Positions 192 to 22,832 of a DNA stretch of 64,000 nt are shown here, piece after piece (the first letter of the stretch is position 1; every line of letters starts with the position of its first letter). The position numbers were made by a program, and so were the translations under genes. Origin of the DNA: a virus (lineage: Duplodnaviria; Caudoviricetes); the IMG/VR virus record IMGVR_UViG_3300044551_000092, positions 96,001-160,000 of that record; one strand, written 5' to 3'. The notes under the pieces are model-generated. The model was given only the letters and a program-made list of their open reading frames with translations. It was not told the origin of the DNA and did not search any database.

Positions 192-207
192 ATGCTTTCT
201 AATTCTC

Positions 208-242: not shown

Positions 243-258
243 AAAGGAGATCTTGTTG

Positions 259-3518: not shown

Positions 3519-6500
3519 ATGGATGATCTGATGGAAATCGTGAAGCCTGAAAATTATCAGGATAATCAGCGGTCATCGAAATATTATTTATATAACGAAG
3601 ATGAACGTGCGGAAATGCCGGTCTATCAGAAAATCGCTCTTGGAGCTATCGCTGGCGCCGGTCTGCTTGCATTTGGTCATCGGACTGGTGCAGTACATAA
3701 AATTGCCCGCTTTTTAGATCGTGATATTCATATATCAGCCAAGGCATGGAGAAGCACGATTAATCAGGAAAGTGGTTTATCAAAAAATCTAAACTGGAAA
3801 CGGTTTGATCAAACACGCCAACACTTTCTCAATGAACGAAAAAGACTTCTTGCAGCTTACGACAAAGAGAAAAATCCATTGAATCGTCGAGAATTTGATA
3901 TTCAAAATTATTTAAATCAACGAGAGCGATTGATTGGGTCTGAAGTAAATGACGAATTTACTGGTGAGATGGCACATGTAATGAACGAAGACTATCGTCT
4001 CCGAGCCATCATGCAGGAGATTCGTCAAAATGAAAAAATCAGTTCAGCAATGGCTGATCGCATCCAGGTCGCTCTTGGCAAGGGCGGGGTTGACGATCTT
4101 CGATTACGCGACGATGAGCATATTCGTTTTTTGTTGAACAATCAAAAGATTAATGACCATAAGATTGTTGATTGGGTCAATGCTTCTCGTCATAAATATC
4201 AGAATATCGATTTTCTAAAGAACGAAGAGTTAAATCCAGGCGGTGCCAATTTTGTTCGACAGATGCAAGAAAAAATGCGTGATTTTACAGCACATCAACT
4301 TCAATATTACAATAAGAAAAATGGTTGGATTAAAAGCCGTATTATCGGACATAAACAAGCAACAGTCGGGGATATACTTGAACTTCACAGACGGGGCGTC
4401 GTAAATATTGACACGCATTTACGAGCACAGATTCACGATGCATTGAAATATAATAAAAAATTTAGAGATACTGTTTTTGATCGGAACTTGTATATTAAGA
4501 CGCGAGGCGGCAAGCCGGCCGGCCTCATGGATTACAATGCTTATCACCGGATTGGCCAGAAGACAATGGAGTGGTGGTCTCATACGCTCCCAGGTGGTTT
4601 GCTCCATCTTCGAGACTTTATTAACAGTCATGAAGCACGTGAACAAGCAGCTTTCCGAATTATGAAACGTGAATCCATTCAACCGATGCTCAACGCGCAA
4701 ATGGGTCTTGCCAATAAAAACCCCTTACATCAGCCTGTTGTTTTTGCGATGGGGCGGTTTGTCCGTCTTTTTGATGACGGGGCAGTAAATCATCACACGG
4801 CGCTCAATATCTTAAACAAGAAACGAGAAATGTATTTAACATCATCTCGATTTGGTACGCTTCCTAAAATTGTTCGGTCGGCAGCAGGGCTTGAAACAAA
4901 GGATAAACGGAGAAATCTTTTTACCGAAACCTTTGACCTATTTAATCAGGGTCGGGATGCGGATTCCGTTGAAATGCTTCGAATGTTTACGAAATATACC
5001 GACCCGACATGGGAAAGAAATGTTGTTCGACGAGTACTAAGCTATGGCATTAAAAACAATAAAGAATTCTATGATATTCGTAAATATTTTAATCGCTATA
5101 CTTCTGGCTATACTCCTCGGACGTTAAATCGGATGAAAAAAATAATGCCCCAATATATTCAGGATTATGTGGAGCAAAATCAACTTAATTTTGGCGACTC
5201 AGAGGACTTAAAGAAACTTTTTGGCTACATGGGGAAGCATGTTTCGCAAAAAGAAAACCCAGATTTTTACCGGTTTCATCAAGAATATCTGAGGAATCCA
5301 AATAATATTTTGTCCTATCACCGTTCGCTTGGCAATGATAATCCGATCATTGGTGGCAATCTCAAGATCCAAACTGGCGAAGATATTATTCGGCAACAGG
5401 TCAGCCGTGAAATAACCAGGCAGATCATTAACCGTAATGCAATCAAGCTCGGCGATAAGCGGGCTTCACAGGTTTTATTTCGCAAGAAATTGGAATCCAT
5501 GCGCTTAAACGATGAACTATTGAAAGGCGACTTGGACAAATCCATTCGCGCTTACAATCAATATCTGTTTGAGGAAGCGGGGGCTGAACATTTCCGCCAT
5601 CCACAATCAAGTTATAAAAAAATTAATGAGTTATTCACCGGTTCGGAGAACATTAGTCGCCAGTTTCAAAAAGACATGCATCAAATGTATCGACAGACAA
5701 ATCCAATTTGGGAAGAATACTCACCAATCAAAAAACCGAATCCGATCGGTGATGACTATTTGGCTGTCAATCGATCTTTTAAAACAAGTGATCTGTTAGG
5801 ACGTACAAAAGAATTTTTTACGGATATCGGCGATAAGGCCAAGCAGCTTGCGCTAACGACCGGCCGCCGAAACTTAGAAGATGTCACCACAATGTCCATC
5901 TTTGGTGGCTTTTATCCGGCATACCGATTACAGGAAGCGCTCGGGGCTGTCGGACTTGGCTTTTCAGATGAATCGCTCGGGTCACCGCTTTCTATCTGGT
6001 CTTCATTAATGCTTAAACGTATCCTTCCAATTTTTGGTGCGGTCGGCTTATATGGTTATGCCGATTATAAAATGCAACAGGATAGCGGGGCCGGCATTAC
6101 TGAACGATATGAGAACTATAAAGCAGATCGCCGAACCGAAGCAGCTCAAGCCCGTTATAAACTTGGACAGCAAGATAAATTAAAACACGAACTGCAACTG
6201 AAACCGGGTATCGATCAATTCAATGAGATGCCGAATGTTACATTGCCCATCATCGGAACCCGAGGCCCGGGAGACATTTTTAATACAATCGCTTCTCTGG
6301 TCTCCAGGACCCCTGTAACGGACTATCATAACGAAGATCGTATGAATGTCCAGGAGACAAAAGAAGACTTGACAAGCGGCGTTACACCCGTCAGAAAGGG
6401 CCGCTGGTGGGCCGCCGGATCACGAAGCGCTTATGTCGGCGATCGTATTCAGCAATTCAAACCGAATAGTTACCGATTAGCACATAGCGATTGGGAACAT

Positions 6501-9500
6501 TCCAACGTGACGGCTACGGGTGAAGAAAAATACAGCCATTCCTTTTTTCCGACAGCGGAAAACCCTCTTGGCTTTATCTCCTACTTAATCGGGACACGTG
6601 ATCCTTATTGGTATGAAAAGAAACACTATTTTGATCGGCCGTATCTCTTAACCGGTGATTTGTTTAATTCCAATACACCCTTTATCGGGGACATCGGCAA
6701 TATGACGATTGGTCAAGTCTTCAAACCAAGTCGTAAGATGCATGAAGACTATTGGGGGGATCCTGTACTAGTCCAAGAAGCAACTGATGAAGCAACGGAC
6801 CGTGATACAGAGAGGGGCGAGGGGTCGCTGGTGACTCGCGTTTCACCGTCCGGCCGCCGGGAAGAAGATGTTTTCAGTACACCTTCTGAATACGGCGCCC
6901 CGATGCAAGATTTTCCGCCGGCGGCTAAAGACAAAAAAGCGGCAAAAGATATTACCGACCGGGCCTATTATGTTGCGCAGATGAAGAATATTAGTACGGG
7001 TAAAGCTACGGGAGATGAGATCGTACGTGGCGTTGATTCCGGTCAAGTTGTCTTTATCCCGTCCCGTCAATCTGGGAATTATGCCTCTTATTCTCAGGCT
7101 TTTAAGGCGGCGGCAACAGCAGAGGCACAAAACCGAAAAATGAGGGAAAACCCACGTTCAAGAGAAATCAACAAGGATAAAATCATTTCAATGTATTATC
7201 CGGGACAAGAGCCAACCATGAAGCTCAAGCCTCGCGGTATCCATGATTTCGAATATCTTTATCAAAAAAGAGCGGATCATGATAAGCTGAGGCATCTTAA
7301 TGATCCTAATAATCTTAACTGGCGTCTGCAAAACTTGCAAAGTAATTGGTCAGAACCGGCCGGTATTTACAACTGGATTATCAATGATGAATTATTAAAA
7401 AACGATCCGTATCGCGATCAAAAAGTAATCGCAAAAGCTCATGACGCTTATGATTTCAACAGCCGTTTTTGGGATCAACAATATGGATCGCTCGGCGGAG
7501 AGCTTTCCGAAATAGGTCGTCGATTTATTCGTAAAGACAGCGGATTTATGGAGAAATATAACCCCATTCAAAATAGGATGCCTTCTTGGTTGCCCGGGTC
7601 GGATTATTTTCAAAATTTTCGAGAGGGAGACCCTTATACATTAATTCCGAATGGTGAATATCGTCTACCCGGGGAAGCGTATGAAAAACTTAATAAACTG
7701 CATCCAGACGAGACTGGACGATACGGAGCATTCGATAAATTTAAGATATTGGCTGATGTGGCTCCGTGGTCAAACGAGTATAACTTTTGGAAAGAGTACG
7801 TGAATGCTTTTACGACAGATAAAACATTAAGAAAACAATTTGCCGATATTAAACGGCAAGTATCTAAACGAAAAAAGAAATATGACTTTCAGCCCTATCA
7901 TTTTCGCAACACGGAACTGGAAAAACAACAAGTAACGGTTACGAAATTTCTTGACGACTATACTTTTCTCACCAAGGAGTTTGGCAATCAACCATTAAGA
8001 ATGGCTGGAATGGATGTCAGAGCAAAAGCTCCCGGAATTCTTCAGCAGTATTTCAAAACAGGCGATAAGATCACAATCGGTTTCAGTAAGGATCCAGTCT
8101 ATCAAAAAGCCAATGATACTTATGGGACGATGCATGTTGATGTCTTTGCGGGATTAAATAGTATTAACCAGCAAATTATCGCTCGCGGTCAAGCGAAAGA
8201 AAGTCCGAATGATTTCACACCGACGGGTGTCTGGGCTCGCTTCACACCTGAAGAAATTGCTCGCGGACACCGTTGGGAAAATGTCGCTCATTTTGAGTCA
8301 GCCTTAAATACAAAATTCCTTCACGTACGTTCCGCGGTAGAAGAATATGAGCGGGATCAGATTTATGGAAAAGACTGGTCTACATGGGAAAACTTTGGGA
8401 TCAGTGATTATTTAATACCAGCTGTCGAACGCATGATTGGAAATAGCAATCCATTAATGGCGACAATGAGCGGTGGACTAGTCGGTGGCTTTATTGGTCG
8501 TCTGTTTCTTGGCGGCGGCAAACGTACTAAAGCCGGATTAATTTTGGGGGCACTAACTGGTTTTGGTGCAAATATGTGGGGGAAATACTACGAGTATCGA
8601 ACCGGTAAGCGTTGGATCCCCAAACGTCGGCGGACTGAAAATGACATCAATGAATACTTTGATTTCTTAAAATACTTAAAATATCATGGACTTTATGAAG
8701 AAACCTCCCGTCGTGCGAAAAAGCAAGGTTATCATATTGACAAGATTTTGCAGAAGATCGATCAAAAGAAGCAAAGTACGAAAAAAGAACAACAAAAACT
8801 GATTGATGAAAAACGACGTCTATATATTCAGCAACCAAAGGATTTCGCTGAAAAAAGAAAAACAATTAACGCTAAGTTAAATAAGATCAGTGAAAATTGG
8901 AATATGGAACAATTACCGGATATTGTATCACAAACAATTTATTACAAAGATCAAATGGAAGCAACGTTATATGGGATGAACCCTAAAGGTGACTATTTGA
9001 ATTTAATGCGGGCACTTCCCTATAAAGATAAGTGGTTCTTTCAGGATTTTGCAAAAGCGGACTCAGAAGATCGAAAGAAAATCCTAAGTTTAATTCCCGA
9101 AAATGAGCGCCCCCTATATCTGAGTATTTGGGGGATGAAGCCTGATGAAAAGAAACCTGTTGCCTATTATCTCAAGAAATACAACATTCCTTCGGCAAAT
9201 TGGGCTGGATGGAGGCCAGATGTCAATCTGGAAGATGTTAAAGTCAAGGCAGTTAAAAATGCCGGACTTGATCTTAGTGATTTTAATTACTGGGATGATG
9301 ACTTGGCGGCTTCAAGATATGCGCCGGATATTAATTCACAAAATAACGTCTACAACCGTCCGGCGGCTTTTAAGGGTTATCATAACGTCGAACAGAATAT
9401 TCGAGAAATTATGGAGGGCTATAATCTGCGTAATGTACATGTAATCGCCAAACCCAGTCAAGGCGGGCTGACACAGGTAAATATTCAATATATGCAAGAT

Positions 9501-9554: not shown

Positions 9555-9569
9555 GGGGGCGCAGGATCA

Positions 9570-12500
9570 ATGGCTGAAGATAATCAATTCGAAATGAATC
9601 AATTGAGCCAAGAAATGGGTATTCCATTGGTGCGGCCCTCGGAGGGGCAATATCAGTGGGCGGCGTCCTTTCAACCTTTATATAAAACAAAAGCAACTAA
9701 CAATCAAGCTTATCAACAAAAGGTACAACGCATGGCACGTCTTATTTCCAATGAGAATGTGCAGAACTCGTTTAACGGGATGCCTATTTCGTTGAATGGA
9801 CACTATATCTATAAAAATCTTTCAACGCCCTACAACTACAATGCTCAGCAAAATATTAGAGATTTTCTAAAATTTAATCAGGCGGACAATTTTATGGCTT
9901 TTGATATAGAATCGATGGGCGATCCCGTAAATTTTGGTAAATTCGGTTTAACCGAAATCGCAGCGAATGAATTTACTCGGACAAATGGCGATATAAAATT
10001 GACACCGAATAGATTTTTCCGTCTGATTAATCCTGGTAAAGAAGTGCTCTATGATAGTGAAAGATTGATTCGCCAATTAGAAACAGATCCCTATGCGTTT
10101 CGTCGGATGAGCAATTATCAAAAAAGAAAACTAGTTGACTTGATGCGCTATTCGACTCTTCCTGAAAAAGGACAGGCGCCAGCGACATTTACTACAGAAA
10201 ACGATGTGGTTACCAACTTTAGACATAACTCCATTGCCTCAACATTTTTTGATAATGAGACTTTAAATGAAAATAAAGTAATTGCTGAAATGAATCGCGT
10301 GATTCCACATATGCGTTCTGGATTAAATATGCTTTCATCCAATCAGGCAATGAATTCTAAGAAAGCGTTGAGCCAATACAGTCAATTTGTCCGAAAGAAT
10401 CAAAATGTTTTTTTCCTTTCTCACAATGGAGCAAATTTTGATTTACCGGCCTTGCAAGCGGCCGCTCAAAAAGTCGGTGTAAGAATGGCACAACCCGCTA
10501 AACATCTTGATCTCTTGCAAACCATATCAACACTGTATCCAAATATTACGGATTTACATAGAGAACTTAATCCGAAATTTAACGGACGACTGCCAATGGG
10601 AGGTAGGAAGCTGCAGAGTCTGATTCAAACGCTTGGTTTGCAGGATACCGGTCTAGCCCATAGTGCAATGGACGATGAACAAGACATGGCAAGAGTGATG
10701 GCAAAGATTGGACCAGTCTTAAAAAATAAAATTGAAACCAGTAAAACGAAAATAAAAGAAGGATTTAATTATCATCCGACCGGTTTTTCATGGAATGACG
10801 AACCGTTGCGTGTGGGAGACCAACTTTTTGCGTCAGGTGGGGTAAAAGCATATTTGGATGGTGAATCTTCTTTTATGATGGAGGGGGACCGGCAGGGGCA
10901 TTACAAATTAAAGAATGATGGATTCAATACAACTTTTGTGAATGCCAAAACGTTTTATCAAGTGAAAGGCCTTCATGATTTATCTGATGAAAAGACAAGA
11001 CGTCTGGCACTGGAATTGTACGATAAAGAAAATGATCGAAAAGTTTTTATCAGTCGTGAGGGTGATCATGCATTCGACGAGATAGGTGCTTTTGTTCAAT
11101 CGCGTTTTTATAATTGGAGAGGCATCACACCGAATCAAAGACGGGAAATTGGACAAGCACATCTTCGTGATCAGGCTCGACGGCGTTATGAGAGCATGTT
11201 TAGCCTAGAGGGCGGTGGAACCGGTCTTACAAAAGGATTTGAAAGCGCAGAACGGCTATATGGAAATGCTGCGGTCTATGCCAAGCGTCTGGCCGGAAAG
11301 GAGAAAAATATCGAGCGCCGCGCCAGAGAACGGGCAAAAAAGAACGGAACAACCATAGCTGAAGAACGAAAAAAGCTGTTAACTCAGCGGATTACCCATG
11401 AAGAAATGTTACGGAGAATGGACTTTAACAGTCTACCGGTTAAGGATCCGACAACAGGCAAGCTGGCCACCGACGGCGCTGGTAATCTGATTAAAACGTT
11501 CAATCGCTCGGAACAGCAACAGTTCTTTAAAATGGCCCCCCGTCTTGTATCCGAGCTGCCGGTTTATGGTCCGGCAATTAATAAAATCAACCAGGTTTTT
11601 CAACCACAGATTGACCAGGCAGCAGGGGCTAAAGACTATAAGACTATTTTAAGACTTAAAAAGCAACGCGATGTTGCATGGAATCTCTATCATCAAAATG
11701 TCAAACAACAGCTAAAAAGTCAAGGACTGGATCACCTTGTCCCGACTGATCAAGTTGAACTGCCAGAATATGAGAATCGACGGATTCACTTTACTGATTA
11801 TGATAAGGGAATGAATACGCAGCGCTTACTGAATCTGGAAAGTGATCAATCCGCCCGGCAGTCGATTTACCGTTTTTTGAATCAAACCAAAAACACAGAA
11901 GAATCGGCAATACAGCACGCACGCAGGCAAAAAGAACGTCTCTATAAGATGGTCCGGTTTTTGGAAAGCGATAAGACGATCAAAGACGCTGGAGCCTACC
12001 GCTCAATTATTCAAAACACGGATTCAGTCAGTGACGCCGTCGATCAGTTTGTCTCTCGTCTGCGCAATAACGATGCGCTGCAAGAGACTACAAGGCAGCA
12101 GGTGTCACTAGCACGTAATGCTGCAGCGAGCCTTGTAAATCGTGATGCGCTTCGCATGAGGCTAAATAGCAGCATTCAGAAATCAAATCAGGTTTATGAT
12201 AATCTGTTTATTCCTCAACAGCCGGCCGGCACGCGGATTGCTTTCAATCGTGAAACAGAAGATCTATTTAAACGCCTTGATGAACGACATCCTGTAACTG
12301 GACTTGAACCGCATAACCGACAAGCAGTAGAAAGTTTGCTTGGCGATATTATGGAACGATATCCAAATATGCAAACGGCACTATCAATTGATCAGTCGAT
12401 CGGTAATGCCCGTATTTCGGTTTTTCGCCCTGAGGACAGTCGTAGTGTGACGGAACATCTAGCGGCTGGTACAAGCCATCCTAGAGCCTTAGAATTCGAG

Positions 12501-15500
12501 CTACCTTTGATAAATAGTCAAGGTACGCATGTAGTTGGTGGGAGGATTCTTAATGCACGGTCCTATCTTGATAAAACGTCTTCCGGCCAATTTCGCCTTT
12601 CCTCCTCATCAGAAATGATCGCCAATGCATATCGTCACAACTTGCCTAGTATCATGAAACGTTTACAGGACAACCAATTTGAAGAAGCCAATTATCGTTC
12701 GCGGCAAACACTAAATGACAGTATTAATGCTCTATCTGGTATCCAACGTACCGTTGACATAAATGAGAATGACAACGATGTTTTTCAGCATTCTCAGAAA
12801 GATATTACAAACCAGGCGCAAGTTGATGTACAGCGAGGAATGATTCGTGATTGGATTGATACTGGTAAACTAAATCCACGGGAGGACTTAGAATCCTCTG
12901 CATTCATCAACGGAAAGTTAAAACATAACTTGACCTTGAACGATGTGAAGTATAATCGGCAACAGGAATTGCTTCGAGAAATGGGCCGTTGGGCGAATGA
13001 AAATCGTGAACGCATCGGGGTGCCACTATATATCTCCGGCGTCAAAGACGTTCATGCAACCAGGGGAATTATGTCCCGCTTAGATGCTCGTGATTTTCAG
13101 CCATTCGGACATTTTGGGAATCAAGGCCGTCCTAATGCCATTCAGTTTACGAATGCTTTTCCCATCAATGAAGATGTACAAAAAAAACTGGATATGCAGA
13201 AATTCTATTATGCTTATGAAAGCAACGTAACGACGCCGACGGAAGATGCCATTAATGAGTTGTGGCGCAGTTTTCCAGAGAATGCGGGGAATTATAATAG
13301 CGTCAATTTGAAGTTTGGATTTATTGATAATCAGACGCTTTATAAACGGATGGAGGCGTTGCGTGAATCACATGCGGCTGATCTTCGAGAAATGGGAATA
13401 TTACAGGATGACGGTTCATGGAACCCGGCCACTTTTCCCCGAGTTTATGAGCAACAGGCGGCGATGGCCAACGAATTATTGGACAGTATGAGTTACACGG
13501 GGCATCAAATACTTAGCCATAATGAAGGATTTGAATTGGCAGAAGGACTAAGTGAAGGACAGATTGTAAAACCGGGCACCATTGTCGGCACAGAAATTCA
13601 GGAGGGGGTTCGAGTACCTGTTCGCTGGGAAAGGCCATATGAGGGGAGGCTGTCAATGCAAAATGGTCAGACTGCCGTCACTTATACTCGCCACCCCTAT
13701 AAATATATTCTCGAAGGAGAAAAGGTCACTCCATCGCCGGTTCCACAGAAACTGTTACAAATGATTACCGGAGACAAAGACATTGTCGGTCTTATTAATC
13801 CAAATATTCAAAAGCACCAGGATTTTAATTTGCTTTTATCCGGTCAATCACGGATCCTTGCGAATCATTTATCTGATCTTGAAAATCAAATTGATCAATC
13901 TCAAACTCAGCAGCAAGCAAAAAAATTATTGCAGCAAAAAAGGAATATCCTGCAAGCGATTAGGGAAAACAATATTCCACTGCAATGGGATGGCCAAGCA
14001 CGTCATTTCACAGACATATCAGCTTCAATGAGATCTGTAAATGGCGGTAAGTTAGAAATAAATAGCGATGCTTTGGATAAGGTTTTTGAGGCTGGTGGAA
14101 TAAGTCATGCTACAAAAGAAGGCATACAGTCGGGGATCTTAAAAACGATTATGTCTCACGTGGAAGACTATTCGAAAGCTGTTGATTATACGGGGCGACG
14201 GATCATCGGGCATGATGAGAACGGTCCGATTTATGGTAGTGAACGTGCGGGCTTTCGTGCCGGACATCGAGAGATGTGGTCGTTTAAACAGCAAGGGCTG
14301 AATCAAACTTATGATTTAGTGGCTCAAAACATGATTGATGAGGCAAAAGGCATGGATAGCTATGCCTTACACGCCCGTCCCAAACGTCGCTTAATATCCC
14401 GCTACGATGAGGCCCGCAATCTATTGAACACATTAAGTAATACGGTACATTCAACAGATTCCAGTATTTCGAAAACTGACGCACTTAGCATTGATAAATT
14501 TGAAAATTTACCGGTTGAGGAAAAAACACGCTTTGGTTATGCAGGAACCATTTTTGATCGTCAACGGATTCAGGAGTTCGGATTTTGGTTAAAGCTACCG
14601 ACAACCAAATTATCGAATGGACAAGAAATAAAACCGACAATAAATTTAAATGGTCCGGAAGCACCGCCTACTCCCGTCGATCGTATTTTTATGCCCTTTA
14701 CAAATCTTGAAGGAGCATCCGGCCAGATCCATCTGCGAAATTTACAACAACAGATGGCAGCAGTATATCGTCGAGCACAAGACGTAGAGAAGCAGACCAG
14801 CATTTCTGCCCGTCAAAAAGCGGGAGAAGGTCTGCAACGGTCCATCAATAATTATTTCGACAATATTATTTATCAGGCATCGGCTTCAAAAGGTTTAATT
14901 GGTGATACCTTAACAACTCGGTTGAGCAATACCTTCACGGGACGTACAAAAGTCATCGATCCTAGAATTTCTCGTCAGATGAATGGCGATTATGCGATGA
15001 TTTCTGAACAGCGAGCAAAAGACCTTGGAATTTATGACCGATTGAAAGCTGGACAAGCTGTTTATGGGATGCATACACGTTACCCGACATTTCATACTCA
15101 CGCATCGCAAATAGCAAAAATTAAAATGGACCCACATATCAACGATCAAAATATCCATCTAAATTCACTATTAGCCGATTTAACAGGAGCCGATAGCGAT
15201 GGAGATGTAGGCCATCTATGGGTTGCACGTGATGCAAAGGGGCATATCTATGATCATATTCAACATGAGTGGGCAAACCGCTATAAACAAGATCAAGAAT
15301 ACAGAGAACAACTTTGGCAACAACATCTTGCTGATTTTGAAAAAGAAAATCCACATGCATTAGATCAGCTTGCCGGAGATAAGATTGTTGCCAGCTCACC
15401 GAATAATGATGCTGAAGTCATGGCTCGCATCGGCAAACGTTATATCGGTGAAGCTTCCAATCTTGGGTTAGCCATGCGTGCCGCTTCTGAACAATATCTC

Positions 15501-16520: not shown

Positions 16521-16535
16521 AGGGTGTGCTTATTC

Positions 16536-19500
16536 ATGGCAGTTTCAGTGCCGACTCTGGATGATCGTGACTTCCTATATGGAGAACTGCCAGAGCATCA
16601 TCTCAGAATCGGAGATAGTCAATTTCTAATTCCTCCGACTTCAATCCAAGTTAATCAGACTATGAAGACTGAGAAGATTACGATGTTGCGTTCAAGGGGG
16701 AGCCTGCCGGTTCAATCCGGATATAGTGAGCAATTCATCACTATATCATTGTTTTTCCCTAACGAAGATGCAATTAACTATGAAATGCGTCCTCTCCTTG
16801 CGCAGATGAAAAAATGTCCTTTTCTACCAATAGAGAATACTTATTTAAACAATGTCTATAAGATTAATGCTATTGTAATTAATGATGTCACCGCACAAAC
16901 AAATCCTGGTTTTCCTGGAACGATGACCTTGCTTGTACAGATGTTTGCATTTGACCCGGCAACGTATATCTATGGAAGCAGTGATAAAGACTTTAATGAT
17001 ATGTTCAACTGGCCTTTGTTTCGCTGGTATTATGAACAAAACCTGATACCGCAAACTGACCAACGACATGCCACTTACTATGAGCCATTGACAGAACCAT
17101 TAAATGACAGTTTTTTCTTCAAAATAGCTTCTGAAGATGACCTGATTGCGATGCGGCAATGGCGATTAAAAAAAACAAAATTGATTCAAGACTGGGCTCA
17201 GCAAAATAAAAGCTGGAGTTTTAGTGATTTCTTTGGATTTCTAAAAGGAAAAGTTGGCCAGATTTTTGGGCATTCCTATAAATCAGAAGAAGAACAGTTC
17301 GATGATGATTTAGATAATCTTTATCACAATGCAATGTTTGATTACGATATAAGTTATGAGCCGTGGCCAACCGGTGATCTTATTTTAACGGATCTGGCAG
17401 TGTCTTTTGAAAATCATCTTTCAACAATGCAGCTTGAAATGGATGAAAATCCGACCTATCAATATTTGGGATCCGGAGACGTAACAATTATTGCAAGCTT
17501 TGAAGCCAGCGACGAAGAATCCTTAGCCAGTCTGCAGAATCTAATTGATCGCGGGAACTATTATCTACGGACCTATCGAGAAGAAATGTTGACCGGAGCG
17601 ATTGAATTTGACTGCCAGCTTGCTCGGTTATTCGGAATCAAAAATGTTGTTATCAGCAATATGGTTGTTGATACAGTGGAAAATCAACCCGGGGTTTATT
17701 CGGTCAAACTGACCATGTACGGCTATAACCGAATTGCTAAAAAAATGAATGAAGTCCGTGCAATGACTCTCGGCCTAGAATGGAGTAATGGCGGTACAAA
17801 TGCATTAAAGTATATCATTCCATTTGTGGGTCCGGTATTATTCGGCGCTGATCGCCCCTTCTTTAAAGTTTTCACCAACTATATGAAGGATGTTGGCGAT
17901 GATATAAAAGTGACAAAAGATGGCGTACAACTAGCCATCTACCAATCTGCTGTATTAGAAACTTTTAAAATGGCCGAAGTGTATCCGGATCTGGAGTTGC
18001 CAACCTATGATGAAGTTGAAGCAGCCGGTTTTTCAATTAAAAACTTGAATGACGGCATCTTTGTAGATCCGGATTTCTTTTTAGTCTATGATGACATCGA
18101 AGATTATGCCAGACAGGTAGACACCGTATTCAAGACGGGTGGAGATAAGTTTGGCCTTCGTTTGGAAGATATGACAGGAAACAATGCTTCTGTAGATGGG
18201 ACAAAAATAAAGCCGGCTAAAGACGATAAAAAGAAGAAAAGTACAGGGCTCAAATCATCGCCGCCCAAAGAAACAAAGTTGGATACCAAAAATAATTCAA
18301 CTGATCAGAATGAAAAACTTTTACGCCAGGCTGCCAAAAAATATGGCATTTCGGATAAATTTATTGTCGGCTTTGCAACTTCTTTCGATCCGAAGCTCAG
18401 GCAGTATTACGACAAGGGTGCCAATCCTGACTTTAATTATTTATACTCTTCTCAAGAGACCTCAACGATCACTCAAAAGCAGGATTTAAAATATACAATT
18501 GGTCAAGAGGGCGCTGATTATTATTATGGTGTAATGCGAGTACGTCCGACACTGGGCTATTCCGTCCTGCTTGAAAAACGCACGGATTATAATATCGATC
18601 AAGGCACGCGGGCGATGGCGGTCTCTATCGCACATTTAAGAGCCGGATATGATGATAAAAATGATTATCACTATGAGCATTTAGCGAATGCTTTTGATTT
18701 AGACTTATCCTCAAAAGAGGATGCTAGTTTGTGTGAATTCATGGGCGGTGTAATGATTTATTTAGGTTATGAACGAGAACTAGCAGAACTATTAAAGAAT
18801 AATCGTCAACTTAGTAGTCAGCTTTCGGGTATGTTAAAAGATATGGTTTCAACGATCAAGAAAACGGATGGCGGGACCTCTAAAACGGATCTAATTAAAT
18901 TACCTGTTAAAGATTATAAAAATATCTCCGATTATAAAGCTCCATCTACACTAGTAGCAGGAACTCAAATAAACGAAGATGATTTTGGAGATTTAGAATC
19001 CTCTACAATTAAGGCCAGCATGTGTCATGATACGATATTATATGATCATCGTGGGCGACTGGTTCGTGCATTCCCTTCCTTTTTTATCGCCTTTATTGAC
19101 GAGGGGCGGTATGTTGGAACGTCCAGGATGTCAGACCAGTTCTTTCAATATCGCGGGGTTACTTCGATTGAATATGATTATACGAGAAAAAGTGCTGCGA
19201 ATACCTTATTTTTAACGATGAGCAATGTCTACGGATCACTGTCAGATTCAGAAAAAGCGCAGGATTTAACTTATTCGAGTACGTGGGATGTTTTTCAATC
19301 ATTGATAAACCCGGCGTCTGCCGCCGACCAGCTTGAGCGAAGCCGGCACCGTGATCCAAATTACTATAAAACAATTATGTTGACGACCGGCACACGGGTT
19401 CATTTCAGGATGGGTTATGGTTCAAATATTCAAATGATGCCAACGATCATCAACGGGACGATTACATCAATTGAAAACAAAATGGAAACTCTTCACGTAG

Positions 19501-22500
19501 CGGTTCAAGGCGATGGCATTGAACTGACAAATAAGCTGAATGCCGTGTATGGCCCAGATGATAGCACGGAAACCTTTCTTCATTCTAAAAAAGAGCCCAC
19601 GGAAATTTTAGACGAGTTGTTGACTGATTCTCAGGGCTTCTGGCACGACTTGATCGCTGGTCTTTCCAACTCAGAATTTAATAATCATTCGTTGGGTATT
19701 ATGCACTTCGGTGCGCCGGGGCCGCCGGAAGGGTGGAATGATGTTGGTTTTCAGCCTTTTCTAGAAAGCATTAACCCTAAAAATTGGTTTGGTGCTTCTC
19801 GTAAAATTGGCGAAGTTAATATGAATGTCTATAATACCAATGGTCTAACTCATAAAGAGGAAGACACCTGGTGGAATAATATTCGCAACACGTTGGGTTT
19901 TGGAGACAGCGATGAGGATAATATCAATATCAATTTGTTTGATAAAACCTTTTGGGATATTGTGAATATCTGTGCGGCCATTGGTGATGATTTTATTGCA
20001 GCGGTTCATCCGTTTGATTTTCGCAGTACCATCTTTATGGGGAAGCCTTATTTCCCGCTTCACTACGGCTATCAGGTAGCGCTTGGACAAGTCGTTGGAA
20101 CAAAAGTGAAAGTCTTTCGTCAGCTGCATTCCTATGATAGTTATACAAATATCATTAATAATGCGGTCTTGGCGTCGGAAGAAAATATGTACAACGTGGC
20201 TGTGGGTACATATATGGATGAGGGAAAGACTCGGACAACTCAGCCCGTCTATGTTGACACAAATATTTGGCCGGAAAAGCAGCGGACCGTAAATATTGAT
20301 ACAACATTAAATGCCAAAGGGATGAAATTTGTAGATAAAATTCCCCTGATTGGCGGCCTACTCAATAAACCAGCTAAATGGTACTTCGATGAAGGAGTCG
20401 CTTTAAAGATTACGGCAGCTGGCTTGCGGGATTATGTCAAAGATATGTACCAAGGGTATTTAACAGTAATGGGCGATCCTTCTGTTAAGCCTTATGATCA
20501 ATGCTTCATGCAAGATGAATTTAATCTGATGTCCGGTACGTTTGATGTCAAAGAGATTATTCACTATTTTGATAAAGAGAATGGCTTTATCAGCATGATA
20601 AAACCAGACATCATCGCTTTCAATAACGATCGAAGAATCTACTCACTCGGGACAGAAGCCATGCATGTCCTATGTGCAGCCTCGACGACTTGGGTCTTGC
20701 GAAAGATTTTACGATCCAAGGGTTACAACACAACACTTCCAGTTATGAATGCCATCTGGTCCAGTACTCGGAAATCTTTAGTCTATGCAAAGCAAAAATT
20801 TGATACTAAAAAATTAAAATCAAAAATTCAAGAATTCTATGGCAATCACATCAAGGGAGCAACTGAACAAGCTGTTACGGATGACATGGAGAAAGCAGCG
20901 GCTGCTGAAAATGTGTCACGGAGCAAGCAGCAAATTTCTGCATCGACCATAAAAAAATGGGTAAAGAACGGTTCATTAAAAAGCGCCGCGAAAAATTTGA
21001 AAGATGTCAGTGCTGAAGAACTTCAAGCTATCCTCAAAGGAGGAAAGTCTGCACTATCCAATCTGAAGTTTACAAAAAATCTTGGCATAGAACGCAGCAA
21101 ACTTCTTCAGCTTAGTAAACGATCGGCCAGCGGCTTATTAAAGGGGGCAAAGTTTGCCGCTGGCGGGGCGGCAAGAGGCGGTAAGTACCTTGTTGGGGCA
21201 AGTTCATTACTTGCGGGACCGCCCGGTTGGGTTGGATTTGCTCTTGAATCAGCCCTAACTTTTGTTGGGACAGCAACAATTGGCGAATTTTTGCATCGTT
21301 TCTTAGCAAATCGACATTCTGTCGTTGTCGTCCCATTAATGAAGGATGGGGTGGCTTTCTGTGCCGGACTGAATGGCCATAAAGGAGCTATCCTCGGTGA
21401 CTCTCCCGATATGATTAGTTGGCTGTCCAATACTTTTATTGGTGATCTTTTCTTAGGATTCACTGGAGTTGATACGAGTGACTTAAACGCATCATCTCAG
21501 TCAGTTTCTATTCAAATGCAAGTCCCAGCCTCAACATATAACGATAAAACAGCAAAAAAGAAAAGTCAGCCGACACAACAAGAAGACGCCGAGACCTGGT
21601 TGAATCAAATTTACCGACGACCGATCATGTATGACCCTGAGATTCAAAAACTTTATGATGCCGACTATGCCGCAAAAGAAAAAGAATGGAAGGATCATCT
21701 AGATGAACTAGGTAAAGGACTGGAAAGTGCATTATATGCCGACTATAGTAAACTGTTCAACCAGGGGCAAGAGTTCATCAATGAACTTCAGAAAATGTTT
21801 AGTAATTTCTTGAATTCAGTCTTCGGCGATAATGATGATTCGGGCGGCGGATCAGTTGATGGGAAAGCTGTCCATATTTCCGCACAGGTTAAAAAATATC
21901 AATCAAAAATTGAAAAATATGCAAAGAAATACAAAGTAGACGGCTATGTGCAACTGCTAATGGCGATTATGATGCAGGAATCCGGCGGACGTGGCAATGA
22001 TCCAATGCAGTCCGGCCAATCCAGTCCAGACGCTTCGATCAAACGGGGCTGTGCCGTTTTTAAAGAATCTTTAGATCATGGTCATAAATATGGTATGAAA
22101 ACAGTTATACAAGGCTATAACATGGGGCCGGGCTTCTGTGATTATGTAGGTAAGCACGGTAAAAAATTCAAAAGCTCCTTAGCTTATTCTTTTTCAGCCT
22201 ATATGAAAAGCAAACATGGTTATCGGGTATTCGGTGATCCCGATTATGTTGCGCATGTCCTGCGTTATTATGAAGGGAGTCTTGAGCCTTCATCCGGCGG
22301 TTCGGGCGATGCGCCAAGTACTGTTGGATCAGCAGGAAAGAAAAAATATCATTTAAGTCAATCCAAAGCAAAGAAGACACTCATTAATTTGCACAGCCAA
22401 AAGGGAAAACACTTTGGCCTAACTCTTGTAGATAGTGGTAGTGGCTTAATTCGGAAAGGTTCTTATGAAGTCCTTAATAATATAGCAGAAAAATATAAGA

Positions 22501-22832
22501 AAGAAACCGGTCAAACATTGAACGTGACCAGTGCTTACCGTCCGGGTGATTCCAACTGGCATGGGACTGGTTATGCGGTGGATGTTGATACGCCAAACAC
22601 AATGGTGCGTCAACGAAACGGTAAACTTGGTTTCAAAATGAACAGTAAAGATCGAAAGAATGCCGAGAAATTAGTGAATATCGCTGCTCAATGTGGTATG
22701 GACGGATTTGTCTTTGGGGATTACTCCCTTCTTCAGGAAGTCAAAAGTAAACACAAGGGTCTTGTCACTCAGTACCGGCCGCAGGACCACTACAATCACT
22801 TTCATATGTCCTATCCAAAGAAGAAAAAATAA
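16536..22832 (+). CDS. Multidomain baseplate hub / tail lysin (gp27/gpD-like hub + CwlT-like lysozyme + M15 peptidase)
   Basis: Hub-like GTRVHFRMGYGS...INGTIT and GYLTVMGDPSVKPYD...EIIHYF. Lysozyme-like MAIMMQESGG..DPMQ...QGYNMG...GDPDYVAHVLRYY. M15-type TSAYRP...HGTGYAVD...HFH. Start set at ATG 16536 (track start GTG 16524). Confidence 0.8.
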   Translation: MAVSVPTLDDRDFLYGELPEHHLRIGDSQFLIPPTSIQVNQTMKTEKITMLRSRGSLPVQSGYSEQFITISLFFPNEDAINYEMRPLLAQMKKCPFLPIENTYLNNVYKINAIVINDVTAQTNPGFPGTMTLLVQMFAFDPATYIYGSSDKDFNDMFNWPLFRWYYEQNLIPQTDQRHATYYEPLTEPLNDSFFFKIASEDDLIAMRQWRLKKTKLIQDWAQQNKSWSFSDFFGFLKGKVGQIFGHSYKSEEEQFDDDLDNLYHNAMFDYDISYEPWPTGDLILTDLAVSFENHLSTMQLEMDENPTYQYLGSGDVTIIASFEASDEESLASLQNLIDRGNYYLRTYREEMLTGAIEFDCQLARLFGIKNVVISNMVVDTVENQPGVYSVKLTMYGYNRIAKKMNEVRAMTLGLEWSNGGTNALKYIIPFVGPVLFGADRPFFKVFTNYMKDVGDDIKVTKDGVQLAIYQSAVLETFKMAEVYPDLELPTYDEVEAAGFSIKNLNDGIFVDPDFFLVYDDIEDYARQVDTVFKTGGDKFGLRLEDMTGNNASVDGTKIKPAKDDKKKKSTGLKSSPPKETKLDTKNNSTDQNEKLLRQAAKKYGISDKFIVGFATSFDPKLRQYYDKGANPDFNYLYSSQETSTITQKQDLKYTIGQEGADYYYGVMRVRPTLGYSVLLEKRTDYNIDQGTRAMAVSIAHLRAGYDDKNDYHYEHLANAFDLDLSSKEDASLCEFMGGVMIYLGYERELAELLKNNRQLSSQLSGMLKDMVSTIKKTDGGTSKTDLIKLPVKDYKNISDYKAPSTLVAGTQINEDDFGDLESSTIKASMCHDTILYDHRGRLVRAFPSFFIAFIDEGRYVGTSRMSDQFFQYRGVTSIEYDYTRKSAANTLFLTMSNVYGSLSDSEKAQDLTYSSTWDVFQSLINPASAADQLERSRHRDPNYYKTIMLTTGTRVHFRMGYGSNIQMMPTIINGTITSIENKMETLHVAVQGDGIELTNKLNAVYGPDDSTETFLHSKKEPTEILDELLTDSQGFWHDLIAGLSNSEFNNHSLGIMHFGAPGPPEGWNDVGFQPFLESINPKNWFGASRKIGEVNMNVYNTNGLTHKEEDTWWNNIRNTLGFGDSDEDNININLFDKTFWDIVNICAAIGDDFIAAVHPFDFRSTIFMGKPYFPLHYGYQVALGQVVGTKVKVFRQLHSYDSYTNIINNAVLASEENMYNVAVGTYMDEGKTRTTQPVYVDTNIWPEKQRTVNIDTTLNAKGMKFVDKIPLIGGLLNKPAKWYFDEGVALKITAAGLRDYVKDMYQGYLTVMGDPSVKPYDQCFMQDEFNLMSGTFDVKEIIHYFDKENGFISMIKPDIIAFNNDRRIYSLGTEAMHVLCAASTTWVLRKILRSKGYNTTLPVMNAIWSSTRKSLVYAKQKFDTKKLKSKIQEFYGNHIKGATEQAVTDDMEKAAAAENVSRSKQQISASTIKKWVKNGSLKSAAKNLKDVSAEELQAILKGGKSALSNLKFTKNLGIERSKLLQLSKRSASGLLKGAKFAAGGAARGGKYLVGASSLLAGPPGWVGFALESALTFVGTATIGEFLHRFLANRHSVVVVPLMKDGVAFCAGLNGHKGAILGDSPDMISWLSNTFIGDLFLGFTGVDTSDLNASSQSVSIQMQVPASTYNDKTAKKKSQPTQQEDAETWLNQIYRRPIMYDPEIQKLYDADYAAKEKEWKDHLDELGKGLESALYADYSKLFNQGQEFINELQKMFSNFLNSVFGDNDDSGGGSVDGKAVHISAQVKKYQSKIEKYAKKYKVDGYVQLLMAIMMQESGGRGNDPMQSGQSSPDASIKRGCAVFKESLDHGHKYGMKTVIQGYNMGPGFCDYVGKHGKKFKSSLAYSFSAYMKSKHGYRVFGDPDYVAHVLRYYEGSLEPSSGGSGDAPSTVGSAGKKKYHLSQSKAKKTLINLHSQKGKHFGLTLVDSGSGLIRKGSYEVLNNIAEKYKKETGQTLNVTSAYRPGDSNWHGTGYAVDVDTPNTMVRQRNGKLGFKMNSKDRKNAEKLVNIAAQCGMDGFVFGDYSLLQEVKSKHKGLVTQYRPQDHYNHFHMSYPKKKK

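What the first reader, a model, noticed from the sequence alone, without database searches (positions are those of the whole stretch)
3519..22832. Three-giant-protein cassette in the tape-measure slot: candidate injected wall-breaching, membrane-crossing and transcription system
Seen: where one tape-measure gene is expected there are ORFs of about 2011, 2316 and 2100 aa. Each has Gly/Ala-rich hydrophobic segments (about 3630-3675, 5940-6060, 8455-8580; 16140-16193; 21130-21295) inside otherwise charged sequence. Together they carry an SNase-like fold, exonuclease + RNAP, and hub + lysozyme + peptidase. No periodic tape-measure repeats are evident. Inference: a co-ejected system that digests the wall, forms a membrane conduit and starts transcription, possibly pulling DNA in by transcription.
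Basis: inference. Interest (0 to 1): 0.8.

Follow-up and report, generated by a model that had tools for sequence, protein, structure and literature searches.

The report
Tail-module giant trio with virion RNA polymerase
A 206-kb jumbo phage of spore-forming bacteria carries, between its tail chaperones and baseplate, three giant genes, and the middle one is an apparently undescribed RNA polymerase fused to a proofreading-type exonuclease that the virus probably injects to start its own transcription.

Summary
Three abutting ORFs of 2011, 2316 and 2102 aa lie between the two tail chaperones and the baseplate wedge genes. The window comes from a complete 206,290-bp jumbo myophage of the Bacillus phage 0305phi8-36 lineage.

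- **Domains:**
  - Protein 1 has a staphylococcal-nuclease fold, though its catalytic residues are not all kept.
  - Protein 2 has an N-terminal DEDDh exonuclease with invariant catalytic residues. It also has a single-chain two-barrel RNA polymerase: the beta-like half scores Z about 15 to Rpb2/beta, the beta'-like half Z about 8, and RxPTxH...DSDGD is invariant.
  - Protein 3 is a gp27/gp44-type hub carrying a lysozyme-like domain and a zinc-peptidase motif.
- **Conservation:** the trio keeps its order in 0305phi8-36, WH1, KLEB27-3, MTATph1 and a Paenibacillus element. The homologues there are annotated as virion proteins.
- **New here:**
  - Proteins 1 and 2 and nearly all their relatives contain no cysteine, while the hub is normal. 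The proven tape-measure-fused polymerase of Thermus phage P23-45 has none either.
  - The genome also encodes a second, YonO-like polymerase.

Ejection, conduit formation and early transcription remain inferred. The closest precedent is P23-45 gp96. This is a new variant: a contractile-tailed jumbo phage, an exonuclease fusion and a different domain order. The scan holds other notes on this same stretch.

The parts
922..1419 (+). tail tube paralogue
   Evidence: tblastn with WH1 gp100/gp101 and 0305 gp140/gp141; phrog_9206. The sheath and first tube gene lie just upstream of the window.
1427..2209 (+). homologue of WH1 gp099 / 0305 gp142 (virion protein)
   Evidence: tblastn 1.7e-38.
2256..2684 (+). 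tail assembly chaperone 1
   Evidence: tblastn to WH1 gp098 (1e-25) and 0305 gp143; phrog_29362.
2691..3503 (+). tail assembly chaperone 2, paralogous to chaperone 1 at its N-terminus
   Evidence: tblastn to WH1 gp097 and 0305 gp144; phrog_29362 and phrog_29368. The two-gene chaperone form is described in PMC2147016.
3519..9554 (+). giant protein 1 (2011 aa, no Cys): gp145-like virion protein with glycine-zipper segments
   Evidence: BLASTP to 0305 gp145 at 3e-104 and to WH1 gp096 at 6e-163; 376 homologues; 0 Cys.
3615..3677 (+). protein 1, hydrophobic segment 1
   Evidence: KD scan.
5988..6062 (+). protein 1, hydrophobic segment 2
   Evidence: KD scan; conserved block in alignment A3.
7911..8318 (+). 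protein 1, SNase-like OB fold (aa about 1465-1600), probably non-catalytic
   Evidence: Profile against PDB thermonuclease, E 1e-3; 5 of 32 members hit PF00565, best 3.3e-7; AF2 model plus Foldseek, prob 1.0, TM about 0.6. The equivalents of SNase D21, E43 and R87 are replaced (alignment).
8454..8585 (+). protein 1, glycine-zipper double hydrophobic segment
   Evidence: KD scan; a homologue is named 'glycine zipper 2TM domain-containing protein' by NCBI.
9570..16520 (+). giant protein 2 (2316 aa, no Cys): exonuclease, two-barrel RNAP and C-terminal membrane anchor, in the tape-measure slot
9867..10694 (+). protein 2, DEDDh 3'-5' exonuclease (aa about 100-375) with a long insert between ExoI and ExoII
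   Evidence: Invariant D112/E114, N286/D291 and H364/D369; 13 of 14 members hit PF13482 and 8 hit RNase_T; profile hits PolB exonuclease domains in PDB at 1.4e-6.
12957..14345 (+). protein 2, beta/Rpb2-like half of the RNAP (aa 1130-1592), including a barrel-sandwich insert
   Evidence: AF2 pLDDT 72.9; Foldseek gives 151 hits at E<=1e-3 and the top 50 are all second-largest RNAP subunits; VIA Z 15-16 with 320-335 aa aligned; Z 14.7 in the Foldseek-independent search. K1378 and K1385 are invariant.
14445..15791 (+). protein 2, beta'/Rpb1-like half of the RNAP (aa about 1626-2074)
   Evidence: VIA wide search: Rpb1/A190/beta' at Z 7.4-8.3 over model residues 471/497-945; single-chain RDR2 at Z 9.3, QDE-1 at 8.7, P74-26 gp62 at 7.1 and crAss gp66 at 6.3 span both halves. 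PF00623 gives weak hits in 5 of 14 members and in KLEB27-3 and WH1.
15192..15206 (+). catalytic DSDGD (D1875, D1877, D1879), 35 residues after R1837-Y-P-T-F-H
   Evidence: Invariant in A1; DxDGD present in about 94 of 101 long family members; matches the published filter [RK]xPx{20,100}DxDxD.
16137..16193 (+). protein 2, C-terminal hydrophobic glycine-zipper segment, followed by a conserved DN..L...WYRD tail
16524..22832 (+). giant protein 3 (2102 aa, 12 Cys): baseplate hub with wall-degrading domains
   Evidence: phrog_20474 at 1271 bits, end to end; tblastn to 0305 gp147 'baseplate hub', KLEB27-3 gp035 and WH1 gp094.
18951..20963 (+). protein 3, hub core (aa 810-1480)
   Evidence: This is the part best conserved with gp147, KLEB27-3, WH1 and MTATph1. 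All ten best named language-model neighbour clusters (0.93-0.94) fall in the Mu gp44/gpP-like hub families or clan. The gp27 homology of gp147 is argued in PMC2147016. The hub was not fold-tested here.
21186..21293 (+). protein 3, hydrophobic Gly/Ala-rich segment
   Evidence: KD scan and a 20-aa run without charged or amide residues.
21882..22283 (+). protein 3, lysozyme-like domain
   Evidence: PF13702 at 1.7e-28; PDB 4fdy and 4hpe N-terminal domains at 4e-18.
22476..22829 (+). protein 3, LAS/VanY-type zinc peptidase motif region (HxxGxAxD ... HxH)
   Evidence: PF02557 VanY at E 8.5e-4, below the curated cut-off; motifs read from the translation.
23587..24273 (+). baseplate protein (gpW/gp25-like)
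   Evidence: phrog_975 and phrog_120.
24289..25155 (+). baseplate wedge gpJ/gp6-like
   Evidence: phrog_6; tblastn to 0305 gp151 at 4e-33.

Best explanation
The cassette encodes the central, host-penetrating complement of the contractile tail of a 0305phi8-36-type jumbo phage.

Shown: it comprises three proteins.
- Protein 1 is a cysteine-free gp145-family virion protein. It has three glycine-zipper hydrophobic segments and an SNase-like OB domain that is probably non-catalytic.
- Protein 2 is cysteine-free and sits where the lineage's tape measure is annotated. It combines a DEDDh 3'-5' exonuclease, a single-chain two-barrel RNA polymerase closest in fold to cellular beta/beta', and a C-terminal membrane segment with a conserved tail.
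- Protein 3 is a gp27/gp44-type hub carrying a lysozyme-like domain and a LAS-type peptidase.

Inferred mechanism:
1. On sheath contraction the hub enzymes cut the peptidoglycan.
2. Proteins 1 and 2 leave the tail lumen in a non-native state. The absence of cysteine suits this.
3. They insert their glycine-zipper segments into the membrane.
4. Protein 2 refolds at the cytoplasmic face as a virion RNA polymerase and transcribes the first genes of the entering DNA.
5. The genome's second, YonO-like polymerase then takes over.

This is the scheme proposed for P23-45 gp96. The exonuclease either trims the entering DNA end or proofreads or processes the transcript. Which of these it does is open.
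For: - **Position and synteny:** the order is sheath, tube, tube paralogue, two chaperones, trio, gpW/gpJ. The same order is found in 0305phi8-36, KLEB27-3, MTATph1, WH1 and a Paenibacillus urinalis element.
- **Virion association of homologues:** GenBank notes say so for gp145 and gp146 by mass spectrometry, and annotate WH1 gp094-096 and KLEB27-3 gp031/033/034 as structural.
- **RNAP fold:** the 18 best of 48,161 representative chains are all RNAP subunits or single-chain two-barrel RNAPs, and they cover both halves. The beta half scores Z 15-16. Foldseek gives 151 hits at E<=1e-3.
- **RNAP motifs:** RYPxFH...ADSDGD is invariant, as are two lysines in the beta-like barrel. DxDGD is kept in about 94 of 101 members of a family of 113 clusters at 50% identity.
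- **Exonuclease:** the catalytic residues are invariant and Pfam/PDB profile hits agree.
- **Second polymerase:** a PF05183 ORF of 1151 aa lies elsewhere in the genome.
- **Cysteine exclusion:** proteins 1 and 2 have 0 Cys in 4327 aa against a genome frequency of 0.79% (P about 1e-15). 106 of 119 and 98 of 100 relatives also have none, and the exceptions carry Cys almost only inside inteins. Hubs and other giant virion proteins are normal. P23-45 gp96 has 0 Cys in 5002 aa.
- **Wall enzymes on the hub:**
Against: - No experiment exists for this phage; it is a metagenomic record.
- A folded exonuclease plus RNAP (about 1300 aa of globular domains) should not fit a tail-tube lumen. To my knowledge the other characterised virion RNAPs (N4, crAss-like, phiKZ) travel in the capsid.
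- The hydrophobic segments are only moderately hydrophobic (KD 1.2-1.4).
- The 0305phi8-36 middle protein gp146 has no DxDGD and no detectable similarity apart from about 27 C-terminal residues. A polymerase is therefore not obligatory in this slot.
- The basis of the 'structural protein' labels of WH1 and KLEB27-3 could not be checked.
- No YonO-like gene was detected in WH1, KLEB27-3 or MTATph1. That search is insensitive.
Confidence: 0.6

Rival explanations
1. Protein 2 is a capsid-packaged internal protein, like the N4, crAss-like and phiKZ virion polymerases, and is merely encoded in the tail module. Protein 1 alone is the tape measure and channel former.
For: Protein 1 directly follows the chaperones, has three glycine-zipper segments and a very tight length distribution (median 2001 aa, IQR 1954-2032). 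About 1300 aa of protein 2 are predicted globular enzyme domains, which is hard to reconcile with a lumen-resident ruler. As far as I know, the other characterised virion RNAPs are in the head.
Against: Protein 2 sits immediately before the hub. It ends in a membrane segment plus a conserved tail, and that tail is the only part weakly shared with the published tape measure gp146 (PMC2147016). Cysteine exclusion is shared by proteins 1 and 2 and by gp146. The protein 1 homologue of KLEB27-3 is split into two genes, which is odd for a continuous ruler.
Confidence: 0.2
2. The two-barrel enzyme of protein 2 synthesises DNA or primers, like the PolD side of the two-barrel superfamily, and the DEDDh domain is its proofreader. 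It would then be an injected replication or repair enzyme rather than a transcriptase.
For: A DEDDh exonuclease fused to a polymerase is the classical proofreading arrangement of DNA polymerases. The exonuclease profile hits family B DNA polymerase exonuclease domains best. The superfamily includes archaeal PolD (stated in PMC7824862).
Against: All of the best structural matches are RNA polymerases, and no PolD chain appears among the 50 rows listed. The RxPTxH...DxDGD signature is that of beta'. RNA-acting DEDDh exonucleases also match (RNase_T and Rv2179c-like exoribonuclease).
Confidence: 0.07
3. The enzyme-like domains are inactive relics, and all three proteins are purely architectural tail parts.
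For: The SNase-like domain of protein 1 has lost key catalytic residues. The 0305phi8-36 phage does without the polymerase motif.
Against: The catalytic residues of the exonuclease and the polymerase are invariant or nearly so across a family that has otherwise diverged to about 30% identity. That indicates purifying selection on catalysis.
Confidence: 0.05

Closest known systems
Thermus phage P23-45 gp96, tape-measure-fused virion RNA polymerase (Chaban et al. 2024, PMC10770324)
   Same: Both are single-chain two-barrel RNAPs inside a giant protein encoded in the tape-measure slot, with [RK]xP...DxDGD and a membrane segment. In both, a second non-virion single-subunit RNAP is encoded elsewhere in the genome. 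Both have zero cysteines. The published model has the polymerase sitting at the membrane pore and transcribing pre-early genes during DNA entry.
   Different: gp96 belongs to a siphovirus with a non-contractile 800-nm tail. Its RNAP is N-terminal and is followed by about 3800 aa of tape measure with a metallopeptidase. Here the phage is a jumbo myovirus, the RNAP is in the C-terminal half with only about 240 aa after it, a DEDDh exonuclease is fused at the N-terminus, and the peptidase sits on the separate hub protein. hhalign found no profile similarity. The beta half here resembles cellular beta far more (Z about 15) than P74-26 gp62 (Z 7.1).
Bacillus phage 0305phi8-36 gp145 / gp146 / gp147 (Thomas 2007; Hardies 2007, PMC2147016)
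   Same: The three giant genes lie in the same order after the same two-gene chaperone. gp145 is homologous to protein 1 (3e-104) and gp147 to protein 3. gp145 and gp146 are virion proteins by mass spectrometry. All first and second giants are cysteine-free. 0305phi8-36 also has a YonO/RdRP-like RNAP (orf99).
   Different: gp146, published as the tape measure, has no DxDGD and no detectable similarity to protein 2 beyond a weak C-terminal motif.
crAss-like phage phi14:2 gp66 and phage N4 vRNAP (virion polymerases inside giant proteins)
   Same: These are giant virion proteins whose central part is an RNA polymerase injected for early transcription. gp66 is a single-chain two-barrel enzyme that aligns over the whole model (Z 6.3, 440 aa).
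   Different: From general knowledge, both are podoviruses whose polymerases are carried in the capsid. N4 vRNAP is T7-like, not two-barrel. Neither is known to carry an exonuclease domain or to be encoded between tail chaperones and hub.
T4 gp27-gp5 / Mu gp44 hub with tail lysozyme
   Same: Both are central baseplate hubs that carry the wall-degrading activity.
   Different: Here the hub, a lysozyme-like domain and a LAS peptidase are one 2102-aa chain with an internal hydrophobic segment. The hub fold was not tested directly.

Membership tests
Two-barrel (DPBB) RNA polymerase superfamily | beta'-type barrel with the metal-binding DxDxD, preceded by [RK]xP within 20-100 residues | tested here: met
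   R1837-Y-P...(35 aa)...D1875-S-D-G-D1879, invariant in 14 sequences. DxDGD is present in about 94 of 101 long members. The regex follows the published filter. The beta'/Rpb1 fold matches at Z 7.4-8.3.
Two-barrel (DPBB) RNA polymerase superfamily | Second, beta-type barrel supplying two basic residues | tested here: met
   VIA Z 15-16 to Rpb2/beta over 320-335 residues and Z 14.7 in the independent search. K1378 and K1385 are invariant in the predicted barrel strands. Their catalytic role is inferred.
Two-barrel (DPBB) RNA polymerase superfamily | Template-dependent RNA synthesis | not testable with these tools
   Needs a biochemical assay.
Tape-measure-fused virion RNAP (P23-45 gp96 type) | Encoded in the tape-measure slot between tail chaperones and tail tip or hub | tested here: met
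Tape-measure-fused virion RNAP (P23-45 gp96 type) | N-terminal RNAP followed by a long tape-measure body with a metallopeptidase | tested here: not met
   The RNAP occupies aa 1130-2075 of 2316. Only about 240 aa follow it, and the peptidase is on protein 3.
Tape-measure-fused virion RNAP (P23-45 gp96 type) | Sequence or structure kinship with gp96 | tested here: inconclusive
   hhalign of A2 against gp96 327-1200 found nothing. The relative P74-26 gp62 aligns at Z 7.1. No gp96 chain was among the rows listed.
Tape-measure-fused virion RNAP (P23-45 gp96 type) | Presence in virions | not testable with these tools
   This rests only on the annotation of homologues: WH1 gp095 'virion structural protein' and KLEB27-3 gp034 'structural protein'.
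Phage tape measure protein | Length proportional to tail length | not testable with these tools
   No micrograph exists for this metagenomic phage. The family length IQR is 2280-2474 aa.
Phage tape measure protein | Largely extended helical protein, often with repeats | tested here: not met
   There are no repeats. About 1300 of 2316 aa are predicted globular enzyme domains. Residues 420-1130 were not modelled.
DEDDh (DnaQ-like) 3'-5' exonuclease | ExoI DxE, ExoII NxxxFD and ExoIII HxxxxD with all acidic residues | tested here: met
   D112/E114, N286/F290/D291 and H364/D369 are invariant. 13 of 14 members hit PF13482 (best 8.6e-7) and 8 hit RNase_T. PDB PolB exonuclease domains hit at 1.4e-6.
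Staphylococcal nuclease (SNase, PF00565) | OB-fold of thermonuclease | tested here: met
   Foldseek prob 1.0 and TM about 0.6 over 130-140 columns; profile E 1e-3; 5 of 32 members pass PF00565.
Staphylococcal nuclease (SNase, PF00565) | Catalytic set D21, D40, E43, R35, R87 | tested here: not met
   In the HMMER alignment protein 1 keeps the R35 and D40 equivalents. It has Y, A and T at the D21, E43 and R87 positions.
gp27 / Mu gp44-type baseplate hub | Hub fold and position next to the baseplate wedge genes | tested here: inconclusive
   Position is met. Homology to 0305 gp147 and to the ME3 'baseplate hub' is shown. Language-model neighbours are gp44/gpP clusters at 0.93-0.94. PDB profile searches found nothing, and no structure was predicted.
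Lysozyme_like (PF13702) | Pfam match above the curated cut-off | tested here: met
   99.7 bits against a cut-off of 25.
LAS / VanY-type zinc peptidase (M15) | HxxGxAxD and HxH motifs, and a Pfam match | tested here: inconclusive
   Both motifs can be read in the last 120 residues. PF02557 scores 19.6 bits, below the cut-off of 25.

The most novel reading that the evidence does not exclude
Protein 2 is threaded unfolded through the contracted tail and refolds at the inner face of the membrane, held there by its C-terminal glycine-zipper anchor. It then acts as a self-contained entry machine. The DEDDh exonuclease resects the 3' strand of the incoming genome end, or proofreads the transcript as nsp14 does for coronavirus polymerase. 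The cellular-type fused beta-beta' polymerase then transcribes the pre-early genes, and this transcription helps reel in a 206-kb genome. Protein 1 forms the channel, and its degenerate SNase domain guides the DNA. If so, this would be the first exonuclease-coupled two-barrel transcriptase and the first tail-delivered polymerase in a contractile-tailed phage. The family has over 100 sequence clusters.
Probability: 0.25. Interest if true: 0.85.

Novelty: new variant of a known kind. Interest (0 to 1): 0.7.

Why it matters
How jumbo phages that lack a phiKZ-type multisubunit virion polymerase start transcription is not settled. This family offers a directly testable answer in cultivable Bacillus phages (WH1, KLEB27-3, Edson).

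It extends the only known case of a tail-module-encoded polymerase (P23-45) to contractile tails. It also extends it to a widespread family: 113 clusters at 50% identity, found on about 200-kb phage or phage-plasmid genomes of Bacillus, Paenibacillus, Virgibacillus, Alicyclobacillus and Moorella.

Two features have not, to my knowledge, been discussed before:
- a DEDDh exonuclease fused to a two-barrel RNA polymerase;
- near-absolute cysteine exclusion that separates the two presumably ejected giants from the hub.

The second could serve as a simple sequence marker for tail-ejected proteins. Both sharpen the open problem of how a large enzyme passes a 4-nm tube.

Tried and rejected
- **No nucleotide or protein matches for the trio or protein 2 among phages:** megablast of the trio against 50,697 phage records gave no match. 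tblastn of protein 2 gave no match at 1e-5. Homology to KLEB27-3 gp034 and WH1 gp095 appeared only in pairwise BLASTP.
- **No sequence link from protein 2 to solved structures:** phmmer of protein 2 and hmmsearch of its RNAP profile against PDB sequences found nothing relevant. Recognition needed structure.
- **No profile link to other polymerases or to gp146:**
  - The RNAP profile against this genome's own YonO-like polymerase and against P23-45 gp96 gave no similarity.
  - The full protein 2 alignment (A1) against 0305 gp146 gave only a non-significant 27-residue C-terminal match.
- **Hub not confirmed by sequence:** PDB profile searches with the two conserved hub blocks found nothing, so the hub label rests on homology and position.
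- **Second polymerase in relatives left open:** PF05183 in WH1, KLEB27-3 and MTATph1 gave no hit. A search with this genome's nvRNAP found nothing even in 0305phi8-36, which does have a family member. The absence therefore says nothing.
- **No weak Pfam or PHROG clues:** whole proteins 1 and 2 gave none beyond RNase_H_2.
- **Chance hit dismissed:** a weak phmmer hit of protein 1 to paramyxovirus L proteins (E 0.065) is taken as chance.
- **No repeats:** Tandem Repeats Finder and self-BLASTP found none.
- **Paper not available:** Thomas et al. 2007 (PMC2171028), which holds the tail-length argument, is not in the library.
- **Not run:**
  - Complex prediction, because no specific binding claim is made.

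Full report
**Source of the window**

The window is bases 96001-160000 of a 206,290-bp IMG/VR virus record rated complete. It has no close nucleotide relative among 50,697 phage records. At protein level its tail module matches the jumbo myophages Bacillus phage 0305phi8-36, vB_BceM_WH1, Edson and vB_BauM_KLEB27-3, and Moorella phage MTATph1.

**Observation**

Three + strand ORFs of 2011, 2316 and 2102 aa lie at 3519-9554, 9570-16520 and 16524-22832, with gaps of 15 and 3 nt.

- Upstream are the sheath and first tube gene (just before the window), a PhoH-like gene, a tube paralogue, a gp142-like gene and two paralogous chaperones.
- Downstream are gpW/gp25-like and gpJ-like baseplate genes.
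- There are no tandem or internal repeats, and the three proteins are not paralogues.

**Protein 1**

- It is homologous to 0305phi8-36 gp145 (3e-104), WH1 gp096 (6e-163), MTATph1 CDS26 and the split pair KLEB27-3 gp031 + gp033.
- gp145 is a virion protein by mass spectrometry, according to its GenBank note.
- The family is large: 376 hits. Most lie on contigs of about 200 kb, several of them labelled as plasmids of Paenibacillus or Bacillus.
- Residues about 1465-1600 adopt the staphylococcal nuclease fold.
  - The family profile hits thermonuclease chains (E 1e-3).
  - 5 of 32 members pass PF00565 (best 3.3e-7).
  - An AlphaFold model of residues 1255-1645 matches SNase structures with Foldseek probability 1.0 and TM about 0.6.
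  - In the HMMER alignment the equivalents of SNase D21, E43 and R87 are Y, A and T. I therefore read the domain as a nucleic-acid-binding OB fold and not an active nuclease (inference).
- The most conserved block (residues about 1300-1420) is predicted with pLDDT below 50. Strongly conserved sequence without a confident autonomous fold would fit a segment that folds only in an assembly.

**Protein 2: family and exonuclease**

- BLASTP links it to KLEB27-3 gp034 ('structural protein', 2e-17) and WH1 gp095 ('virion structural protein'). It is not linked to 0305phi8-36 gp146.
- Fourteen close homologues of 2243-2683 aa align end to end.
- The N-terminal domain has invariant ExoI (D112, E114), ExoII (N286, F290, D291) and ExoIII (H364, D369) motifs.
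- 13 of 14 members hit PF13482 and 8 hit RNase_T. The profile hits family B polymerase exonuclease domains in PDB at 1.4e-6.

**Protein 2: polymerase**

- *Model.* Residues 1130-2080 were modelled at pLDDT 72.9 and pTM 0.68.
- *Foldseek.* There are 151 PDB hits at E<=1e-3, and the first 50 are all second-largest subunits of cellular, poxvirus or ASFV RNA polymerases.
- *VIA-align.* Z is 15-16 over 320-335 residues for model residues 1-463 against Rpb2 residues about 494-1113.
- *Foldseek-independent search of 48,161 representative chains.* The 18 best rows are all RNA polymerases.
  - Beta-type subunits score Z 11.9-14.7. These include the phiKZ and AR9 non-virion enzymes.
  - Single-chain RDR2 scores 9.3, QDE-1 8.7, P74-26 gp62 7.1 and crAss gp66 6.3. 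Each spans both halves of the model.
  - Rpb1/A190/beta' score Z 7.4-8.3 over model residues about 471/497-945.
- *Barrel-sandwich insert.* A small domain at model residues 181-243 matches biotinyl/NusG-type domains at Z 5-6.5. A barrel-sandwich insert is described as typical of cellular beta and absent from the YonO/RdRP branch (PMC7824862). I have not shown that this domain is that insert; the link is my inference.
- *Motifs.* R1837-Y-P-T-F-H lies 35 residues before the invariant A-D-S-D-G-D. This reproduces the beta' signature and the published filter [RK]xPx{20,100}DxDxD.
- *Pfam.* PF00623, the Rpb1 active-site domain, is the only Pfam family that recurs: weakly in 5 of 14 members, and in KLEB27-3 gp034 and WH1 gp095.
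- *Family size.* An exhaustive HMM search of 1.84 billion representatives finds 113 clusters. Nearly all are 2100-3100 aa with the polymerase at the same relative position.
- *Conservation.* About 94 of 101 long members keep DxDGD, and 94 of 101 have a hydrophobic run in the last 220 residues.

**Protein 3**

- phrog_20474 matches it end to end at 1271 bits.
- It is homologous to 0305phi8-36 gp147, which is annotated as baseplate hub, and to its counterparts in the other isolates. Hardies et al. argued that gp147 has a T4 gp27 domain (PMC2147016).
- The conserved core (residues 810-1480) has Mu gp44/gpP-like hub clusters as its language-model neighbours, at 0.93-0.94. This is a lead only. PDB profile searches were blank.
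- The C-terminus has Lysozyme_like PF13702 (1.7e-28; PDB 4fdy at 4e-18). It also has a sub-threshold VanY match with readable HxxGxAxD and HxH motifs.

**Conservation of the arrangement**

The order chaperones, giant 1, giant 2, hub giant is found in five relatives:

- 0305phi8-36: gp143/144, then gp145, gp146, gp147.
- WH1: gp098/097, then gp096, gp095, gp094.
- KLEB27-3: giant 1 is split.
- MTATph1: the middle gene is interrupted near a transposase gene.
- A Paenibacillus urinalis element: 1957, 2259 and 2145 aa.

**Cysteine exclusion**

- Proteins 1 and 2 contain no cysteine in 4327 residues, while the genome's ORFs average 0.79% (P about 1e-15).
- 106 of 119 protein 1 relatives and 98 of 100 long protein 2 relatives also have none. 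The exceptions in family 1 carry their cysteines almost only inside intein inserts.
- The hub has 12 Cys. The two other giant virion proteins in the window have 11 and 8.
- The same split holds in all four isolates, and 0305phi8-36 gp146 is also cysteine-free.
- P23-45 gp96, the experimentally proven tape-measure-fused polymerase, has none in 5002 residues, against 0.16% in its neighbouring structural proteins.

I read this as a signature of proteins that must stay in, or pass through, a non-native state outside the cytoplasm. That interpretation is inference.

**Second polymerase**

The genome has a 1151-aa ORF matching PF05183 (RdRP/YonO-like, 43 bits) about 40 kb upstream of the window. It corresponds to orf99 of 0305phi8-36 (PMC2147016).

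**Mechanism and comparison**

The best-supported reading is the one given under Best explanation. The closest precedent is P23-45 gp96. Its authors propose a polymerase held at the tape-measure pore that transcribes pre-early genes, including the gene for a second polymerase, during DNA entry (PMC10770324).

The present protein fails one defining feature of that type. Its domain order is exonuclease, unknown region, RNAP and short anchor, not an N-terminal RNAP followed by a long tape-measure body. It also shows no profile similarity to gp96. I therefore describe it as working like gp96 without being a member of its family.

The survey of viruses with two RNAPs in that paper does not list the accessions of 0305phi8-36, WH1 or KLEB27-3. 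The jumbo-phage overview notes only the YonO-like enzyme of 0305phi8-36. My literature searches found no description of this family. Absence from the held library is not proof of novelty.

**Verdict**

The domain calls are correct. The functional reading is plausible, has a precedent, and remains untested. I class it as a new variant of a known kind, of good interest because cultivable relatives make it testable.

Noticed in passing
window 3519-16520; families P0017-P0135 and P0004-P0244: Near-absolute cysteine exclusion in giant proteins 1 and 2 and their relatives, and in 0305 gp146 and P23-45 gp96. Hubs and other giant virion proteins have normal cysteine content.
   Followed up: yes
homologues of protein 1 (P0086, P0088, P0096, P0098, P0108, P0111, P0116, P0122, P0125, P0130): Inteins (PF14528, PF14890) are inserted at five or more distinct, highly conserved sites of the protein 1 family, near residues 970, 1036-1058, 1375, 1400 and 1596 of protein 1. 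This is unusual for a tail protein and marks these motifs as functionally critical.
   Followed up: partly
window 7419-7778 (protein 1 aa about 1300-1420): The most conserved block of protein 1, with about 30 invariant residues, is predicted with pLDDT below 50. It may fold only within an assembly.
   Followed up: no
window 22-906: A PhoH-like ATPase gene (phrog_170, 4.7e-49) sits between the first tail tube gene and its paralogue. This insertion is absent from the tail modules of WH1, KLEB27-3 and 0305phi8-36.
   Followed up: no
L001 11651-19264 (0305phi8-36 gp146): The published tape measure of 0305phi8-36 lacks any DxDxD and is not detectably related to protein 2 apart from about 27 C-terminal residues. 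The middle slot of this lineage therefore holds at least two unrelated bodies on a shared C-terminal anchor.
   Followed up: partly
L005 11766-19122 (MTATph1) and L002 4292-11445 (KLEB27-3): In MTATph1 the middle giant is cut short (1309 aa) next to a transposase gene. In KLEB27-3 the protein 1 homologue is split into 1340 aa and 677 aa around a small ORF.
   Followed up: no
window 35382-41291 and 41306-46294: Two further giant ORFs (1969 and 1662 aa) match virion structural PHROGs only at their C-termini. Their function is unknown.
   Followed up: no
window 32669-33163: An enoyl-CoA hydratase/carnithine racemase-like ORF (phrog_1128, 1.9e-25) lies within the tail-fibre region.
   Followed up: no
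contigs of P0014, P0035, P0042, P0059, P0063: Many relatives lie on replicons of about 200 kb that are labelled as plasmids of Paenibacillus or Bacillus. This suggests that the lineage often persists as a phage-plasmid.
   Followed up: no
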